Source of the DNA: Escherichia phage vB_EcoM_3HA14
Length of the DNA: 64,000 nt
Sequence record: MN342151.1
Reading direction: 5' to 3' (one strand)
Below the pieces are notes generated by a model, which saw only the letters and a list, made by a program, of their open reading frames with translations, was not told the DNA's origin and did no database searches. A program made the translations under genes and the position numbers. Positions 38,739-62,172 of the stretch are shown here, one piece after another. The stretch's first letter is position 1. Each line of letters opens with the position of its first letter.

Positions 38739-40154
38739 TTACCAATCGTAGCGTTCAACCATTACTGCTTTGAGCATTACGCTGATAGGGTCAAACTTCT
38801 CACCACCAAGCAAAGCTTTTAAAGTGGCTGGAGAGAAACCAGATACCATTGCTACACCGTTATCCTTTACAGACACTTCGCAAGTACCGTTACGGTTTGC
38901 TAAGTACCAGAATACCAGTTGTGGCATCTCATATCCAGCTTTCTTGTACTTTTCTTGAATTGCTTCAAAGTTAGTACGACCATCTGCTCCATCAACCTGA
39001 TTAAACTGCATATCAGAGAAGATGATAAGCTTACTAGGCATCTCTTTCTGAGTCAAGTTGTTTTTAACACCAATCTCAAGGATTCTTGCAAAAGCAGCTT
39101 GTAGGTCAGTTGAACCATACTCTACATGACTCTTCACTTGACGTAAGCGAGTCTGTAAATCACCACTCAATGTGATGAAGTGAGGTCTGCTAGAGTAAAC
39201 CATCAATTCATCTTTAAAGCAACCTGTATTACGTTCTGAAACGTACAGGGCTAAAGATACACCAATGTCTAGCGCTGTAACAGAACCATGTCGCTCCCAA
39301 GTCATAGATGAAGATACATCTGCCATGCACAGAATGTTCTCACCCTCTTTCATCCAGTTTGGTAAAGCTTTCCACTGCTCATTTGCAACGGTTGCATTAC
39401 CATAACCGACTGACTTTGTAATGTCATAAGGGTAGACTGCACCAGCATTAATCTTTGTCTCACCTTTAGTCAGTGCTGCAATGTATGCTGCATAACGCTC
39501 ACCATCTTTACGACTGAAGAGTTTTTGATAACGTGCAGCAGCCAGTGAAGGAAGCTTGCTGTAATCAATCTCTCCGAACTCATTTGCTGAAATCTTTTGT
39601 TCAACAGTATCAGACAGTGCTGACAGAAGAACTCGATACTGCTTCTCTGAAAGATTTGCAAACTTACAGAAACGACGAACAAAACGCATGTGTCGTGATT
39701 TTACTCGTGGTAACCATTTTGCTGCCAGAGCCGATGTTGCAGGGTCTAACAGTGCAGCTTCTAAATGCTTGAAAGCATCTGTTTCGTAACGTGTACCAAC
39801 AAAGATTTTAAAGTCGTCATAACGACCTAAATCAGAAATCTTGTCCATGATACGTAACACTTGGAACTCATCAAGAATCCCGTCAGAGATTGCTTTAGTA
39901 AGAGTATAACGGAACGCTTTACGCTCACCCATACCTTCTCGTGCATCTCGCATATGTAACAGGATTCGAACTGCTACATCAATATCTTCTCGCATTGCCT
40001 TGTAAAACAAGTTTGGAAGAACTTCTACATTTGTTCTGCTTGAACCAGCAGCTTTGTAGAAATCTACCAGTGCAGACATTGAAGAGGTGTGGTTAACAGC
40101 ACCGTTTTCAGTTAAACCTGCATGTAAATGCGAGTGCTTAAATAATTCGCTCAT
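38739..40154 (-). CDS. vWA-domain protein (471 aa), possibly TROVE/Ro60-like
   Basis: C-terminal half has vWA hallmarks: hydrophobic strand then DVSSSM (MIDAS DxSxS) and LIIFSDMQFN; N-terminal about 270 aa helical. Directly upstream of and co-oriented with the tRNA cluster. Confidence 0.55.
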   Translation of the reverse strand: MSELFKHSHLHAGLTENGAVNHTSSMSALVDFYKAAGSSRTNVEVLPNLFYKAMREDIDVAVRILLHMRDAREGMGERKAFRYTLTKAISDGILDEFQVLRIMDKISDLGRYDDFKIFVGTRYETDAFKHLEAALLDPATSALAAKWLPRVKSRHMRFVRRFCKFANLSEKQYRVLLSALSDTVEQKISANEFGEIDYSKLPSLAAARYQKLFSRKDGERYAAYIAALTKGETKINAGAVYPYDITKSVGYGNATVANEQWKALPNWMKEGENILCMADVSSSMTWERHGSVTALDIGVSLALYVSERNTGCFKDELMVYSSRPHFITLSGDLQTRLRQVKSHVEYGSTDLQAAFARILEIGVKNNLTQKEMPSKLIIFSDMQFNQVDGADGRTNFEAIQEKYKKAGYEMPQLVFWYLANRNGTCEVSVKDNGVAMVSGFSPATLKALLGGEKFDPISVMLKAVMVERYDW

Positions 40155-57935: not shown

Positions 57936-58142
57936 TTAAACGTTGTAATAATAAATTGCTGTATGCCTTGTGTAATGCCTTGTGTGAGTTGTCAAATAAC
58001 AATCAGACCTGATTGACGTATCAACATATTCATCAAAATCCTTTTCTGAGATACGTTGCCAAACATCACAAATTAGCATATAGAAACGACGTTTATTTGT
58101 TTTGTTGTTGTCAACAATCATTAACTCACGTTGATATAACAT
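57936..58142 (-). CDS. hypothetical small protein (68 aa)
   Basis: First gene of the island; preceded by short-type cassette at 58143-58200. Confidence 0.45.
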   Translation of the reverse strand: MLYQRELMIVDNNKTNKRRFYMLICDVWQRISEKDFDEYVDTSIRSDCYLTTHTRHYTRHTAIYYYNV

Positions 58143-58393
58143 TTTTAGATTCTCCAGTTTAGGATTGTTGGGATGTTTCCCGTTGATGCAAATACTATAA
58201 GACTGGATTTATGAAGTCAACAAAAATTTTTAAAATATTTTTGATGTTTCGTGAATAGAACGCACGTATGCGGGTACACTAAAACAGAAACCTAGTCAAG
58301 AATTATTTTTGAGTTCTCTACAAATTTCTCTCTTGACTTTTGGGAGGAAGGGGAGTAAGAGGGGATGGTGGGGCTGGTTTCCTACAGCTACCT

Positions 58394-58600
58394 ACCTGCA
58401 CAATTTGAAAATGAATTTTCCCTTTGGAGTCCAACTGCATCTGCACAGATTGAAAATGAAAAAGCTCTTTGGAGTCTAAACCTGCACAAATTTGAAATGA
58501 ATTTTCCCTTTGGAGTTCAGCTAAAGAAATCTGTCCAGAGTTCTATGCAACTATACCTGCACAAATTTAAAATGAAAAAGCCCTCCTTACCTGAGATTTT
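58394..58600. repeat. four direct repeats of about 40-45 bp in intergenic region
   Basis: CCTGCACA(A/G)ATTTGAAAATGAA-(TTTTCCC or AAAAGCTC)-TTTGGAGT at about 58394, 58440, 58481, 58555; two alternating subtypes. ORF 58365..58643 across them is probably not coding. Confidence 0.65.
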
Positions 58601-58623
58601 TAAACTCAAACTTTGGAGGGCTT
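58573..58623 (-). terminator. possible terminator after macro-domain gene (large loop)
   Basis: On - strand: AAGCCCTCC ... GGAGGGCTT 9-bp stem with about 28-nt loop, followed by TTTTTCATTTT. Confidence 0.3.
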
Positions 58624-58647
58624 GTCTATGTCTAGCTAGGTGACTTA

Positions 58648-59499
58648 TTAGTTACGTGCTTCAACATAGCTTACGTTTTCATGTGTGATATAATCTTCTG
58701 CAAACTCTTCTGTAGTCGCATTGATATATACACTTGCATCATCACTAAACGTTACCGCTCTGTGGTGGTGGCCTTGTAACGGGTGGGTAACTTGAGCGTT
58801 ACTTCGATTGTACTTCTCAACCGGAGGGTAACTGGTGTGTACCTTGCCATTACGCTTCACCTTGAGGGTAACTTTATCCTTGCCTACCACAGCAACACCA
58901 TCAAAGTATTGAGGCTCACTGAAGTTCTCCCAACCAGTAACAGGATTAGTCAACTGACTGTACATCTTATCTTCATAGACATACATATAAACGTCAACAT
59001 CCTTCATAGTCTGGTTGATAATGGACAGTACAGCCATGCTATCAAGACCACCAATCCCTGCACCAACCATTGGAAGCCCAACTTTCTTAAGTTGGTTAAC
59101 TTTACAGTAGTTATTAAGACGCTGTAAAGCTGCTTCTAAGGCGTTGTATCGTGCATCTTTGCCAGTGATAACCTGAGTGTAAAGGTTAGCAATTCGACCC
59201 TGCTTAAAACGTGCTACAGAGATGTTACCAAGCATTAGATGCTTAGGGTTATGATTTTCACCACCTACTGTAGCATAAACTTCAGCGTCAGTTTCATAAG
59301 CTTTTGGGTAGCGTTTAGCAATTGTTGCTGCGATACCTGCACCCATCAAGTTCATGCAGTTACAGCCGTGACCAATGATATCAAACTTCTTACCATCAAA
59401 GTCTTTAAAGATATCACCTTTAATAATTTTTACGATACCCATATTAGTAATGCTCCCAACGTTCGTTATCTTCAGATGGTTTAACTCGGTTACCTTCAT
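58648..59499 (-). CDS. macro-domain protein (TARG1/DarG-like ADP-ribose-binding or hydrolase fold) with C-terminal extension
   Basis: GDIF...DIIGHGCNCMNLMGAGIAATIAKRYP and VGLPMVGAGIGGLD match the Gly-rich ADP-ribose-binding loops of macro domains; about 110 aa extra C-terminal region with a His-rich patch. Confidence 0.6.
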   Translation of the reverse strand: MKVTELNHLKITNVGSITNMGIVKIIKGDIFKDFDGKKFDIIGHGCNCMNLMGAGIAATIAKRYPKAYETDAEVYATVGGENHNPKHLMLGNISVARFKQGRIANLYTQVITGKDARYNALEAALQRLNNYCKVNQLKKVGLPMVGAGIGGLDSMAVLSIINQTMKDVDVYMYVYEDKMYSQLTNPVTGWENFSEPQYFDGVAVVGKDKVTLKVKRNGKVHTSYPPVEKYNRSNAQVTHPLQGHHHRAVTFSDDASVYINATTEEFAEDYITHENVSYVEARN

Positions 59500-59644
59500 G
59501 GTCTACCCATAAAGCACCACAACCTTCACAGATTACTGGCATTGCTGAACCAGCTTCAAACTCTGCTTTTGTAAAGAGACCTTTTAAGTCTCCTGTATCT
59601 CTGCCAAACATATCAATAGAACACTTAGTGCAGAAGTCAGCCAT
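59444..59644 (-). CDS. zinc-ribbon-like small protein (66 aa)
   Basis: CxxC ... CxxC pairs (CTKCS, CEGCG). Confidence 0.35.
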   Translation of the reverse strand: MADFCTKCSIDMFGRDTGDLKGLFTKAEFEAGSAMPVICEGCGALWVDHEGNRVKPSEDNERWEHY

Positions 59645-59861
59645 TTAAGATTACCTCTTGAATAATAGTACGATTACTCTTAAAAGTCTTCTTGAAATCT
59701 TCAACATTTGAGCGGCAAAATTCACTATTCAAGTAATTTGTATAGCTCTTGTTTTCATGTGAGAAGATTTCAGTAAATGGTACTACTTCATTGCGACCTA
59801 CATAAACGCCAGTTGCAATAATCTGACGAGTCTTTTTATTTCTGATTAACAGAATTTTCAT
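59637..59861 (-). CDS. hypothetical small protein (74 aa)
   Basis: ORF. Confidence 0.4.
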   Translation of the reverse strand: MKILLIRNKKTRQIIATGVYVGRNEVVPFTEIFSHENKSYTNYLNSEFCRSNVEDFKKTFKSNRTIIQEVILNG

Positions 59862-60165
59862 ACATCACCTTTTCAGTTATCTCAAACAGGTCAACATGTT
59901 CGATGCTTTCAATATGGATACCAACTTTTGCATAGCGTTCTTTAACATTCTCTGCATTAAGCCATATCAGACACCAATGATTCTCTATGGATTCTTCAAG
60001 CTTGTCAACACAATCTTTAAAAGATTTCATATCTCCACGAGTGCCAATGAATGCAACAACCCCATAGAGAAATTCTTTACCACTGTGACAGACTTGTGCT
60101 GTACCAATTTCCTTTTCACCGTCTGAGAAGACGGCTACATAATTCTTACCATCTAGTTGCATCAC
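59836..60165 (-). CDS. hypothetical protein (109 aa)
   Basis: ORF. Confidence 0.4.
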   Translation of the reverse strand: MMQLDGKNYVAVFSDGEKEIGTAQVCHSGKEFLYGVVAFIGTRGDMKSFKDCVDKLEESIENHWCLIWLNAENVKERYAKVGIHIESIEHVDLFEITEKVMYENSVNQK

Positions 60166-60171
60166 TAACCC

Positions 60172-60441
60172 TCACTTCCTCGTTTTAAGGACTGCATAGA
60201 TTTCTTTAGAATCTTCCCCGAACCATGTGTAGTGATTCTCGTTGATTTCAGGATGGTTGTCAACACGTATTTTGCAATCTCTTCCAACATGTTTAAGTTG
60301 TGCAGAAACACCCTGCATAAAGATGTGACAAGTTACATCATCCATAACCGTTGGCATAATGTCAAATCTCATGTAAGTGTTACTTGGTCTTGGTAACAGA
60401 AGATAACCTTCCACAAAAAATGTTTCATTCTTCTCTGTCAT
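60172..60441 (-). CDS. hypothetical protein (89 aa)
   Basis: ORF. Confidence 0.4.
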   Translation of the reverse strand: MTEKNETFFVEGYLLLPRPSNTYMRFDIMPTVMDDVTCHIFMQGVSAQLKHVGRDCKIRVDNHPEINENHYTWFGEDSKEIYAVLKTRK

Positions 60442-61476: not shown

Positions 61477-62172
61477 TCAGTTTTTAACAAGCATTGTTTT
61501 GATGTGTGGTAAGATTCTTTCAACCTTCTCCACGTTCTTCACTGTATCTTCTATAAAGCATACTACATCATAGTAAGGTAGAATGCAAGACTGAAGCATA
61601 CGAACTTTCAAACTTTCTGCACTAATCTCATTGTCACCAAATCCACGCATAAACAGTAGGAAATCACTGTCTACATTCTCATTCAGGAAAAGATGTGTGA
61701 CAACTCTTTGTGATTCACCACGAGCGGTTAAGAATCCTATATCAGCATTTCTTGATATACCACACAGAATGTTAAAAACATATGTTGGTTTAGCTCTGCA
61801 AGATTCTACCAAATCAGTATACTGTGAGTAAGTACCATCAGTTAGCAGAGTTGCATTAAGCTCCTTATTAAAGCTTGTAAGAACACCGTCAATGTCTGCT
61901 AAGACCATTTTACGTTTTTCTTCCAAGTTCTTTGCAACCAAGATAAGGCTGTTACGACCAACATATACAGTTTTACCTGTTAGCAAATCCTGACAAGGAA
62001 TCTGTGTCTTTGTTGAGTGGAAGTCTTCAAAGCTACACACAACATATCTTGCTGTATCTGCAAAGTCAGCTTTAGCAATATCTGACCAACTTGCAGAACT
62101 GATATCTAAATCAAGTGGCTTAATATCATAAGCATGACACAGAACCATATCAAATTGTTTTGATTCGCTCAT
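61477..62172 (-). CDS. HAD-family phosphatase-like protein (231 aa), possible 5'-nucleotidase
   Basis: Motif I-like VLADIDGVL (hhhDxDGxL) at residue about 100; later FIEDT resembles motif IV. Confidence 0.4.
   Translation of the reverse strand: MSESKQFDMVLCHAYDIKPLDLDISSASWSDIAKADFADTARYVVCSFEDFHSTKTQIPCQDLLTGKTVYVGRNSLILVAKNLEEKRKMVLADIDGVLTSFNKELNATLLTDGTYSQYTDLVESCRAKPTYVFNILCGISRNADIGFLTARGESQRVVTHLFLNENVDSDFLLFMRGFGDNEISAESLKVRMLQSCILPYYDVVCFIEDTVKNVEKVERILPHIKTMLVKN

What the first reader, a model, noticed from the sequence alone, without database searches (positions are those of the whole stretch)
58648..59499. TARG1/DarG-like macro-domain protein as a candidate counter-defence factor
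The N-terminal 170 aa carry macro-domain ADP-ribose-binding loops (GHGCNCMNLMGAGIA; VGLPMVGAGIGGLD) of the TARG1/DarG type rather than the VNAAN...GGGV type. Such domains remove ADP-ribose from proteins or nucleic acids. A virulent phage encoding one is a plausible countermeasure to ADP-ribosylating defence toxins such as DarT-type systems, or a regulator of its own ADP-ribosyltransferases. The about 110-aa C-terminal extension is unassigned.
Basis: partly seen in the sequence, partly recalled or inferred. Interest (0 to 1): 0.7.

Follow-up and report, generated by a model that had tools for sequence, protein, structure and literature searches.

The report
Phage anti-DarT macrodomain with orphan tail
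This phage gene encodes an enzyme domain of the type that strips ADP-ribose tags off DNA, clearly related to a phage T4 protein recently shown to defeat a bacterial DNA-tagging defence, and it is fused to a small extra domain found nowhere else, so the call is sound but no longer surprising.

Summary
The ORF is real (minus strand). Its true start is almost certainly the ATG at 59442 (264 aa), not 59499.

- **Macro domain:** Residues 1-156 score above the Pfam threshold. The AlphaFold2 model matches TARG1, Poa1p and DarG at TM 0.74-0.85. A family profile hits DarG and TARG1 at about 1e-19.
- **Known relatives:** The domain is 39% identical to T4 Tk.4. A 2025 preprint named Tk.4 AdfM because deleting it sensitises T4 to DarTG2. 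PhiKZ AdfM (2026) removes DarT2 ADP-ribose from DNA in vitro.
- **Refinement:** An invariant Gln replaces the DarG/TARG1 catalytic lysine (H-x-x-N...Q). That is the signature of SCO6735/BT1257, of which SCO6735 is a proven thymidine-ADP-ribose DNA hydrolase. T4 AdfM shares it; PhiKZ AdfM does not.
- **Rejected alternative:** No ART, DarT or Tpt1 gene was found, so "regulator of its own ARTs" is unsupported.
- **C-terminal module:** The 108-aa module is under purifying selection, folds confidently and evolves faster than the macro domain. It has no relative outside Ounavirinae-type phages, and its role is unknown.

This protein itself has never been tested.

The parts
58648..59442 (-). Coding sequence of the macro-domain protein (264 aa plus stop), with the corrected start
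   Evidence: ORF. Start-site reasoning. The 264-aa annotation in Sf18 gp70, HP1_119 and Moogle116 agrees. PHROG 335 gives E 7e-106.
59443..59499 (-).
   Evidence: This stretch overlaps the 3' end of the upstream gene in another frame. No homologue carries the extension.
58975..59442 (-). Macro domain (residues 1-156), ALC1-like/TARG1-DarG class
   Evidence: Pfam PF01661 above threshold. NCBIfam and PADLOC DarG models match only this part. AF2 gives pLDDT 80 and pTM 0.78. Foldseek matches TARG1 (TM on target 0.80-0.85), DarG (0.75-0.81) and Poa1p (0.74-0.75).
59359..59370 (-). H25-G26-C27-N28 motif. N28 is equivalent to Taq DarG N22, SCO6735 N27 and PhiKZ AdfM N23. H25 is equivalent to SCO6735 His24.
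   Evidence: Invariant H25 and N28 in A2. Alignment A5. Mutational data come from PMC5179494, PMC9411070 and PMC13309987.
59329..59346 (-). First glycine-rich ADP-ribose/phosphate-binding loop, M33-G-A-G-I-A38
   Evidence: G34, G36 and A38 are invariant. The loop aligns with the MGAGIA/MGKGIA loops of TARG1 and DarG.
59173..59175 (-). Gln90 codon, at the position of the catalytic Lys80 of DarG and Lys84 of TARG1; equivalent to Gln85 of SCO6735
   Evidence: Invariant in 18/18 family members and in T4 Tk.4. It aligns with the K of 'PTK'/'ITK' and with the Q of BT1257 'MIGQ'. SCO6735 Q85A is inactive.
59041..59064 (-). Second glycine-rich loop, G127-A-G-I-G-G-L-D134 (diphosphate-binding loop)
   Evidence: P124, G127 and G129 are invariant. 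The loop aligns with DarG GVGNGGLD.
58651..58974 (-). C-terminal orphan module (residues 157-264): one short helix, a linker, then six beta-strands and two or three short helices
59453..59457 (-). Shine-Dalgarno-like GGGAG, 10 nt before the ATG at 59442
   Evidence: Sequence read directly.
59444..59644 (-). Upstream, translationally coupled 66-aa CxxC...CxxC protein (phrog_2210); a syntenic neighbour with no shown functional link
   Evidence: It is adjacent in Moogle, Felixounavirus SP3 and the P0009 contig, but not in the P0011 contig.
58569..58623 (-). Terminator-like hairpin (AAGCCCUCC...GGAGGGCUU) plus a U-run, 27 nt after the stop codon
   Evidence: RNA fold gives -21.7 kcal/mol, z -3.1. 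Coordinates checked.

Best explanation
The gene encodes an orphan, antitoxin-like ADP-ribosyl-glycohydrolase of the AdfM type (anti-DarT factor, macrodomain). After infection the macro domain would bind ADP-ribose attached to thymidine in single-stranded phage DNA by DarT2-type defence toxins and hydrolyse the base-ribose bond. That would restore replicable DNA and let the phage escape DarTG2-type abortive defence. The active site is the Gln type: His25-x-x-Asn28 plus Gln90, as in SCO6735/BT1257 and T4 AdfM. Catalysis would then be water-mediated, with Gln90 held by Asn28 to position the distal ribose, rather than going through the lysine of DarG/TARG1. Shown here: the macro fold, the class, the homology to T4 AdfM and the active-site signature. 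Inferred: the substrate (dT-ADPr on ssDNA), the catalytic mechanism and the biological role. The 108-aa C-terminal module is a lineage-specific accessory domain of unknown role. My preferred guess is that it binds a partner, either the toxin or the phage replisome/ssDNA.
For: Macro fold and class. Homology to T4 Tk.4/AdfM: 39% identity over 136 aa, pairwise E 2e-19. Both share HGCN...NLYTQ. T4 Tk.4 was the single HIDEN-SEQ hit on a DarTG2 host, and its clean deletion sensitises T4 to DarTG2. PhiKZ AdfM removes DarT2-made ADP-ribose from a TNTC oligonucleotide and rescues DarT2 toxicity; its catalytic Asn corresponds to N28 here. A Gln-type enzyme with this signature, SCO6735, efficiently cleaves dT-ADPr on ssDNA and protects against DarT. 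Its Q85A and N27S mutants lose activity. T4 Tk.4's nearest solved structure is BT1257, SCO6735's closest homologue. The gene is an orphan in a virulent Mooglevirus genome with no adjacent toxin. It is under strong purifying selection (macro dN/dS 0.03-0.07). About 240 phage records (Mooglevirus and Felixounavirus among those examined) carry the full-length form, and over 2,600 phage records carry the macro domain.
Against: No experiment exists on this protein or on any Ounavirinae homologue; a literature search for DarTG2 with Felixounavirus found nothing. The T4 evidence is genetic and from a preprint, and hydrolase activity of the T4-type (Gln) phage enzyme has not been shown in vitro. Identity to the characterised enzymes is modest: 39% to T4, 21-26% to BT1257, DarG, TARG1 and PhiKZ AdfM. 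The family lacks the longer basic 'mobile loop' that SCO6735/BT1257 are proposed to use for DNA binding. ALC1-class macrodomains can also act on protein, RNA-uracil and small-molecule ADP-ribose substrates, so sequence cannot establish substrate specificity. The extra C-terminal domain is absent from T4 and PhiKZ AdfM, so the function may have diverged.
Confidence: 0.6

Rival explanations
1. It is a broader or different macromolecular ADP-ribose eraser. It would remove ADP-ribose placed by other host defence ADP-ribosyltransferases on proteins or RNA (for example uracil-linked ADP-ribose on RNA, or Asp/Glu-linked protein ADP-ribose) rather than, or in addition to, DarT2 marks on DNA.
For: TARG1, DarG and SCO6735 also hydrolyse uracil-linked ADP-ribose on RNA. 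SCO6735 and TARG1 also act on ADP-ribosylated proteins. The structural neighbours are equally TARG1 and DarG. The extra C-terminal domain could redirect specificity.
Against: The closest characterised phage homologue has a DarTG2-specific phenotype: it was the single significant hit in the T4 screen. No bacterial defence that makes reversible U-ADPr or protein ADPr sensitive to this class is cited in the papers read. CmdT adenine modification of mRNA is described as irreversible.
Confidence: 0.2
2. It processes a small ADP-ribose derivative. Candidates are Appr-1''-phosphate phosphatase activity (Poa1p-like, the origin of the 'phosphatase' label in RefSeq and PHROGs), O-acetyl-ADP-ribose deacetylase activity, or degradation of an ADP-ribose-based immune signal such as those of Thoeris.
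For: Poa1p is among the best sequence and fold matches and shares the HxCNC motif. T4 Tk.4 was historically annotated 'A1pp phosphatase motif'. Iyer et al. argue that many phage macro domains may act on soluble ADP-ribose derivatives. A HAD/PNKP-like gene lies 2 kb upstream, and NAD-salvage genes occur in relatives.
Against: No Tpt1/KptA, 2H-phosphoesterase or RNA ligase was detected among 20 unassigned ORFs or in the annotations of relatives, so nothing would generate Appr-1''-p. The position of Poa1p F152, one of the residues mutated in the deposited Poa1p structures, is Gly in this family. The T4 homologue's phenotype is explained by DNA repair of DarT2 damage.
Confidence: 0.12
3. It regulates the phage's own ADP-ribosyltransferases, as T4 might balance Alt/ModA/ModB.
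For: T4 carries both ARTs and Tk.4 (general knowledge; discusses phage ARTs).
Against: No ART-family Pfam domain appears in 20 unassigned ORFs of the window. None is annotated in the complete genomes of the relatives HP1 and Sf18. The family is widespread in phages irrespective of ARTs.
Confidence: 0.03
4. It is a non-catalytic ADP-ribose binder (reader or sponge) because it lacks the catalytic lysine.
For: The DarG/TARG1 catalytic Lys is replaced by Gln.
Against: SCO6735, with the same Gln and the His-x-x-Asn motif, is a highly active hydrolase, and its Gln is essential. The T4 homologue with the same Gln protects against DarTG2. H25, N28 and Q90 are invariant.
Confidence: 0.05

Closest known systems
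Phage T4 Tk.4 = AdfM (anti-DarT factor, macrodomain; bioRxiv 10.1101/2025.11.20.689424)
   Same: A phage-encoded orphan macro domain, 39% identical over 136 aa. It has the identical HGCN...NLYTQ active-site signature and glycine loops. It sits in the accessory-gene part of a virulent myovirus.
   Different: T4 AdfM is a 155-aa single domain, whereas this protein carries an extra 108-aa C-terminal module. The genomic neighbourhood differs. The anti-DarTG2 phenotype is shown only for T4.
PhiKZ gp104 = AdfM (DarG2-like, PMC13309987)
   Same: A phage orphan macrodomain of the same class. Its catalytic Asn23 aligns with N28. It is biochemically proven to remove DarT2 ADP-ribose from DNA.
   Different: Identity is only 23%. 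PhiKZ AdfM keeps the DarG-type 'FPTK' lysine and lacks the His (ITVN), so it belongs to a different, DarG-like lineage. It is imported into the phage nucleus and has no C-terminal module.
SCO6735 (Streptomyces coelicolor, PDB 5E3B) and BT1257 (PDB 2FG1)
   Same: ALC1-class macrodomains with His-x-x-Asn and with Gln in place of the catalytic Lys. SCO6735 cleaves thymidine-linked ADP-ribose on ssDNA and protects from DarT. BT1257 is the best PDB match of T4 Tk.4, and both match this family's profile at 1e-12 to 1e-14.
   Different: They are cellular stand-alone enzymes. Their 'mobile loop' after the Gln is about 5-6 residues longer and carries the DNA-binding lysines, whereas the phage family has the short loop. 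They have no C-terminal module.
DarG antitoxin of DarTG2 (Taq/Mtb DarG, PDB 5M31/5M3E/5M3I; NCBIfam NF048014)
   Same: It is the best profile match in the PDB (E 3.5e-19). It has an N-terminal macro domain followed by a second domain, and it reverses DarT2 thymidine ADP-ribosylation.
   Different: The score is far below the equivalog cut-off (53 against 250 bits), and only the macro half matches. Gln replaces the catalytic Lys80. The C-terminal module is unrelated to the acidic, ssDNA-mimicking DarT-binding domain. There is no adjacent darT gene.
Human TARG1/OARD1 (PDB 4J5S)
   Same: It is the top structural neighbour (TM 0.80-0.85 on the target). The His precedes the first loop, and the glycine loops are similar.
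   Different: TARG1 uses the Lys84/Asp125 dyad. Here those positions are Gln90 and Gly131. Identity is 22-26%.
Yeast Poa1p, ADP-ribose-1''-phosphate phosphatase (PDB 6LFQ)
   Same: It has the best single-sequence PDB match over the N-terminal 60 residues, shares the HxCNC motif and has a similar fold. It is the source of the 'phosphatase' annotation.
   Different: In Poa1p, Ser occupies the Gln90 position and Phe152 the G131 position. Poa1p acts in a tRNA-splicing by-product pathway for which no partner genes were found here.

Membership tests
Macro domain (Pfam PF01661) | Profile score at or above the curated gathering score | tested here: met
   30.2 bits against a cut-off of 22, covering profile positions 2-117 of 118.
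Macro domain (Pfam PF01661) | Three-layer alpha/beta/alpha macro fold | tested here: met
   The AF2 model has pLDDT 80. Foldseek probability is 1.00 to TARG1, Poa1p, DarG and viral macrodomains, with TM on the target up to 0.85.
Macro domain (Pfam PF01661) | Binds ADP-ribose | not testable with these tools
   Both glycine-rich loops and the conserved Asn are present. Binding itself needs ITC or a crystal soak.
ALC1-like class (TARG1/DarG/SCO6735/Poa1p) as opposed to MacroD type | Closest relatives by profile and by fold are members of this class | tested here: met
   PDB profile ranking: DarG, TARG1, BT1257, Poa1p and SCO6735 all fall between 1e-12 and 1e-19, while viral/MacroD-type domains score about 1e-3. 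The NCBIfam MacroD-type model scores only 13 bits.
DarG antitoxin (NCBIfam NF048014 equivalog) | Full-length score at or above 250 bits | tested here: not met
   53.3 bits, matching only positions 2-153 of 338. PADLOC DarG matches only 5-147 of 329.
DarG antitoxin (NCBIfam NF048014 equivalog) | Catalytic lysine (Taq DarG K80) | tested here: not met
   Gln90 occupies that column in all family members.
DarG antitoxin (NCBIfam NF048014 equivalog) | C-terminal DarT-binding, ssDNA-mimicking domain | tested here: not met
DarG antitoxin (NCBIfam NF048014 equivalog) | Encoded next to a darT toxin gene | tested here: not met
   The neighbours are a 66-aa CxxC protein upstream and a 500-bp intergenic region downstream. 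No ART/DarT Pfam hit occurs in nearby ORFs.
AdfM, T4 Tk.4 type (anti-DarT2 macrodomain) | Significant homology to T4 Tk.4 with the same active-site signature | tested here: met
   39% identity, E 2e-19. HGCN and NLYTQ are shared.
AdfM, T4 Tk.4 type (anti-DarT2 macrodomain) | Phage-encoded orphan with no cognate toxin | tested here: met
   The genome is a virulent Mooglevirus, and no toxin gene lies nearby.
AdfM, T4 Tk.4 type (anti-DarT2 macrodomain) | Protects the phage against DarTG2 | not testable with these tools
   Shown for T4 and PhiKZ only. No data exist for Ounavirinae.
AdfM, T4 Tk.4 type (anti-DarT2 macrodomain) | Single-domain architecture of about 155-160 aa | tested here: not met
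   This protein has an additional 108-aa C-terminal module that T4 Tk.4 and PhiKZ gp104 lack.
SCO6735/BT1257 Gln-type thymidine-ADP-ribose hydrolases | Gln at the catalytic-Lys position plus the His-x-x-Asn motif | tested here: met
   Direct alignment with BT1257 (HICN...MIGQ). The SCO6735 residues His24, Val25, Asn27 and Gln85 come from PMC9411070. Equivalence to SCO6735 itself is by transitivity through TARG1, DarG and BT1257.
SCO6735/BT1257 Gln-type thymidine-ADP-ribose hydrolases | Extended basic 'mobile loop' (about 5 residues longer, Lys89/Lys94) | tested here: not met
   The phage family and T4 Tk.4 have the short loop, while BT1257 has a 6-residue insertion in A5 (the paper's description is).
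Poa1p-type ADP-ribose-1''-phosphate phosphatase | Genomic presence of the pathway that makes the substrate (Tpt1/KptA plus a cyclic phosphodiesterase) | tested here: inconclusive
   None was found in 20 unassigned ORFs or in the annotations of relatives. However, many small ORFs and the part of the genome outside the window were not scanned.

The most novel reading that the evidence does not exclude
The fast-evolving orphan C-terminal module may be an independently evolved toxin-binding (or other defence-protein-binding) domain. In that case this protein would neutralise DarT-type toxins in two ways, like full-length DarG: enzymatic reversal by the Gln-type macro domain and stoichiometric inhibition by the C-terminal module. 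It would be a convergent, phage-built 'complete antitoxin' whose second domain tracks toxin diversity. Nothing here excludes this. The architecture parallels DarG, and the module is under purifying selection yet has 1.3- to 6-fold higher dN/dS than the macro domain. Its AF2 packing against the macro domain also looks defined (pTM 0.78).
Probability: 0.15. Interest if true: 0.6.

Novelty: new member of a known kind. Interest (0 to 1): 0.35.

Why it matters
If confirmed, the finding would extend the recently defined AdfM counter-defence from T-even and jumbo (nucleus-forming) phages to the Felix-O1/Moogle group (Ounavirinae), several of which are used or proposed for Salmonella, Shigella, Citrobacter and E. 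coli biocontrol. It would help predict which hosts carrying DarTG2 these phages can still infect.

The analysis also shows that the two proteins currently called AdfM have different active sites. T4 AdfM and this family have Gln with the SCO6735/BT1257 signature, while PhiKZ AdfM has the DarG lysine. This points to at least two independent captures of macrodomains by phages. It also makes the phage enzymes a natural test of the lysine-independent mechanism proposed for SCO6735.

The conserved orphan C-terminal domain is a defined, testable unknown.

Tried and rejected
- **Reading frame and start:** The plus-strand reading of the interval is full of stops. The first ATG (59499) was rejected as the start.
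- **Stand-alone C-terminal domain:** P0019 (114 aa) and P0020 (54 aa) looked like free copies. P0019, from a 1,455-bp contig, begins inside the last macro strand, and P0020, from a 931-bp contig, is just the last 54 residues of the family; both are best read as truncated gene calls.
- **Remote homologues of the C-terminal module:** Two giant proteins (P0021, P0022) matched weakly in the exhaustive HMMER search. They are Calx-beta and YDG/MBG adhesin repeats, and hhalign probability is 0.5%, so the matches are spurious. The Pfam hits DUF4767 and Hormone_1 are far below threshold.
- **DarG-like acidic ssDNA mimic:** Net charge among orthologues runs from -5.2 to +5.9, so neither a conserved acidic mimic nor a conserved basic DNA binder fits.
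- **Residue-level alignment to SCO6735 (5E3B):** I could not obtain one directly. A Paenarthrobacter plasmid homologue and T4 Tk.4 used as queries returned DarG and BT1257 alignments instead. I used BT1257 and the published residue numbers.
- **Functional link to the upstream 66-aa CxxC gene:** The pairing is conserved synteny within the lineage but absent next to the most divergent member, so it is not independent evidence.
- **Own ARTs or an RNA-repair pathway:** Nothing was found.
- **Literature:** Searching 'DarTG2' with 'Felixounavirus' gave zero papers. Searching 'AdfM' alone was swamped by journal abbreviations. The Thoeris and CmdTAC papers did not implicate phage macrodomains.
- **Rfam:** Nothing in the downstream intergenic region.
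Full report
**Observation**

The interval 58648..59499 holds an ORF on the minus strand (283 aa from the first ATG). The plus-strand frame is interrupted by stops.

The true start is almost certainly the ATG at 59442:
- It lies one base after the TAA stop of the upstream 66-aa gene, with GGGAG 10 nt upstream.
- Every homologue in the protein databases starts at this MGIVK.
- The GenBank annotations of Sf18 gp70, HP1_119 and Moogle116, and of the 261-aa Felixounavirus SP3_67, start at the equivalent MGIVK.

The protein is therefore 264 aa, and I use that numbering below.

**Source of the window**

The window comes from a virulent Mooglevirus (Ounavirinae, Felix-O1-like myoviruses). It is about 97% identical to Citrobacter phage BSwM KMM2 and to Shigella phages Sf13 to Sf19. 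In those records the gene is annotated variously as hypothetical, 'macro domain-containing protein' or 'phosphatase'.

**The N-terminal domain is a macro domain**

- Pfam PF01661 scores 30.2 bits against a gathering score of 22 and covers almost the whole model.
- PHROG 335 ('phosphatase') matches the full length at E 7e-106.
- The NCBIfam and PADLOC DarG models match the macro half only, at about 53 bits. That is far below the 250-bit equivalog cut-off.
- A profile of the family against PDB sequences ranks Mtb DarG (3.5e-19), TARG1 (1.6e-18), Taq DarG (2e-16), BT1257 (2e-14 to 3e-14), Poa1p (4e-14) and SCO6735 (2e-12). Viral and MacroD-type domains score about 1e-3.
- An AlphaFold2 model built on 18 sequences has mean pLDDT 80.3 and pTM 0.78.
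- Foldseek against the PDB returns TARG1 (TM on the target 0.80-0.85), Poa1p (0.74-0.75) and DarG (0.75-0.81). All alignments span about 160 columns.

**What is known about homologues**

tblastn finds the macro domain in 2,664 phage records. Among them is T4 Tk.4, historically annotated 'A1pp phosphatase motif', which explains the 'phosphatase' label. Direct comparison with T4 Tk.4 gives 39% identity over 136 residues, E 2e-19.

- **T4 Tk.4.** A 2025 preprint found tk.4 as the single significant transposon-sequencing hit on a DarTG2 host. A clean deletion sensitises T4 to DarTG2, and the authors named the protein AdfM.
- **PhiKZ gp104.** A 2026 Cell Reports paper independently named this protein AdfM. 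It removes ADP-ribose from a DarT2-modified oligonucleotide, rescues DarT2 toxicity and protects the phage. Mutating a conserved Asn reduces activity.
- **T4 AdfN.** An earlier paper on this NADAR enzyme had predicted an unidentified anti-DarTG2 factor in T4.

The finding belongs to a known kind.

**Refinement of the active site**

In the profile-to-PDB alignments, the family's invariant Gln90 ('NLYTQ') sits in the column of the lysine of DarG 'FPTK' and of TARG1 'ITK'. The Taq DarG chain printed has an offset of 10.

An explicit alignment (A5) shows two signatures:

| Type | Protein | First motif | Catalytic column |
|---|---|---|---|
| Gln type | this protein | HGCN | NLYTQ |
| Gln type | T4 Tk.4 | HGCN | NLYTQ |
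| Gln type | Paenarthrobacter plasmid macrodomain | HGVN | NLASQ |
| Gln type | BT1257 | HICN | NMIGQ |
| Lys type | TARG1 | HCIS | ITK |
| Lys type | Mtb/Taq DarG | NTVN | FPTK |
| Lys type | PhiKZ AdfM | ITVN | FPTK |

The SCO6735 paper reports His24-Val25-x-Asn27 and Gln85 in that enzyme, with Gln85 at the catalytic-lysine position:
- Q85A and Q85E are inactive, and N27S is nearly inactive.
- The authors propose a water-mediated mechanism in which Asn27 locks Gln85 to position the distal ribose.
- SCO6735 cleaves thymidine-linked ADP-ribose on ssDNA faster than DarG or TARG1 and protects cells from DarT.
- BT1257 is SCO6735's closest structural homologue.

BT1257 is also the best PDB match of T4 Tk.4 (E 1.3e-9).

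This protein and T4 AdfM therefore carry the SCO6735/BT1257-type active site, whereas PhiKZ AdfM carries the DarG type. One difference remains: the phage family has the short loop after the Gln, not the extended basic 'mobile loop' of SCO6735/BT1257. Equivalence to SCO6735 itself rests on the BT1257 alignment and the published numbering. I could not obtain a direct 5E3B alignment.

**The C-terminal extension (residues 157-264)**

- **No detectable relatives by sequence.** It has no Pfam match and does not match the C-terminal half of the DarG models. A profile search of 5.8 billion proteins and an exhaustive HMMER scan of 1.84 billion representatives recover only the same two-domain family. 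The other hits are truncated fragments and two spurious repeat-protein matches.
- **Under selection, but less constrained.** Within Mooglevirus, dN/dS is 0.07-0.25, against 0.03-0.07 for the macro domain. Against Felixounavirus it is 0.46-0.54, against 0.15-0.20. In the same protein pair, amino-acid identity falls to 65% where the macro domain keeps 90%.
- **Variable charge.** Net charge ranges from -5.2 to +5.9 among orthologues. That argues against a conserved DarG-like acidic ssDNA mimic (describes that mechanism) and equally against a conserved basic DNA binder.
- **Restricted distribution.** The two-domain form occurs in about 240 phage records that cover at least 80% of the query (Mooglevirus and Felixounavirus among those examined) and in a few metagenomic relatives down to 37% identity.

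Its function is unknown. The parallel with DarG's macro-plus-toxin-binding architecture is an analogy, not a finding.

**Genomic context**

- The gene is the last of a minus-strand run: rIIB, a lysozyme-like gene, a HAD/PNKP-like gene, spanins, several small genes and then the 66-aa CxxC protein.
- It ends at a strong terminator-like hairpin (-21.7 kcal/mol, z -3.1).
- A roughly 500-bp intergenic region follows, with four 43-nt direct repeats and promoter-like sites.
- The gene order is kept in Felixounavirus and in a metagenomic relative at 42% identity.
- No ART, DarT, Tpt1/KptA or other NAD-consuming domain was detected in 20 unassigned ORFs of the window, and none is annotated in the relatives HP1 and Sf18. 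This removes support for 'regulator of own ARTs' and weakens the Appr-1''-p phosphatase idea.

**Verdict**

- **Best explanation (confidence about 0.6):** an AdfM-type orphan de-ADP-ribosylase that repairs DarT2-modified phage ssDNA.
- **Main rivals:** a different macromolecular substrate (0.2) or a small-molecule substrate (0.12).
- **Classification:** a new member of a known kind, with an unexplained lineage-specific C-terminal domain.
- **Caveats:** the T4 evidence is genetic and from a preprint, and neither this protein nor any Ounavirinae homologue has been tested experimentally.

Noticed in passing
window 58394-58597 (within the intergenic region about 58150-58645): Four direct repeats of a 43-nt unit (ACCTGCACAAATTTGAAATGAA...CCCTTTGGAGT on the plus strand, 63-100% identity, spacing 41-75 nt) lie just downstream of the macro gene. 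The last copy overlaps the terminator hairpin. The motif occurs nowhere else in the 64-kb window (0 expected by chance). No Rfam family matches, and promoter-like TTGACT/TATAGT sites follow. The region is where megablast alignments to most relatives break (91% coverage in 2 pieces), and phage Mordin annotates a 'repeat_region' under the match to window 58000-60200. Function unknown.
   Followed up: partly
window 59444-59644 (minus strand): A 66-aa protein with two CxxC pairs (zinc-ribbon-like, phrog_2210, unknown function) is translationally coupled to the macro gene: its stop and the next ATG are one base apart. It is more conserved than its neighbour (73-76% identity where the macro protein is 42-64%). 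It is adjacent in Moogle, Felixounavirus and a metagenomic relative, but not next to the most divergent homologue (P0011).
   Followed up: partly
window 61477-62172 (minus strand): The gene annotated 'polynucleotide kinase' in relatives (phrog_3970) has no Pfam hit at E<=0.01, and its homologue shows only a faint HAD_PNKP match. The sequence has a DxDGV HAD-phosphatase motif but no obvious P-loop. It may be a phosphatase-only protein rather than a kinase-phosphatase.
   Followed up: partly
window 38739-40154 (minus strand): A 471-aa protein carries DUF2828 plus DUF7788 (E 6e-27 and 6e-44). It sits next to the tRNA cluster and is annotated only as hypothetical in relatives.
   Followed up: no
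window about 41000-64000 compared with L003/L004 (phage HP1): Judged by gene sizes and order, the window reads through the point where HP1's linear record begins and ends (570-bp terminal repeats). The right-arm accessory genes (window 51-64 kb, minus strand) are followed by the left-arm genes (window 41-49 kb, plus strand). The source assembly is therefore permuted relative to HP1, or the window spans a terminal repeat near 50 kb. This was not verified by alignment.
   Followed up: no
L004 24639-27382 (phage HP1; outside the window): Relatives encode ribose-phosphate pyrophosphokinase and a nicotinate/nicotinamide phosphoribosyltransferase about 8-11 kb upstream of the macro gene. This NAD-salvage pair would fit a wider NAD/ADP-ribose counter-defence repertoire in this lineage.
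   Followed up: no
L005 241-693 (Paenarthrobacter plasmid pYJN5-1) and other plasmid hits: Stand-alone bacterial plasmid macrodomains share the same Gln-type signature (HGVN...NLASQ) with the short loop. This form is therefore not phage-specific, and these plasmid genes could be the reservoir from which phages captured it.
   Followed up: no
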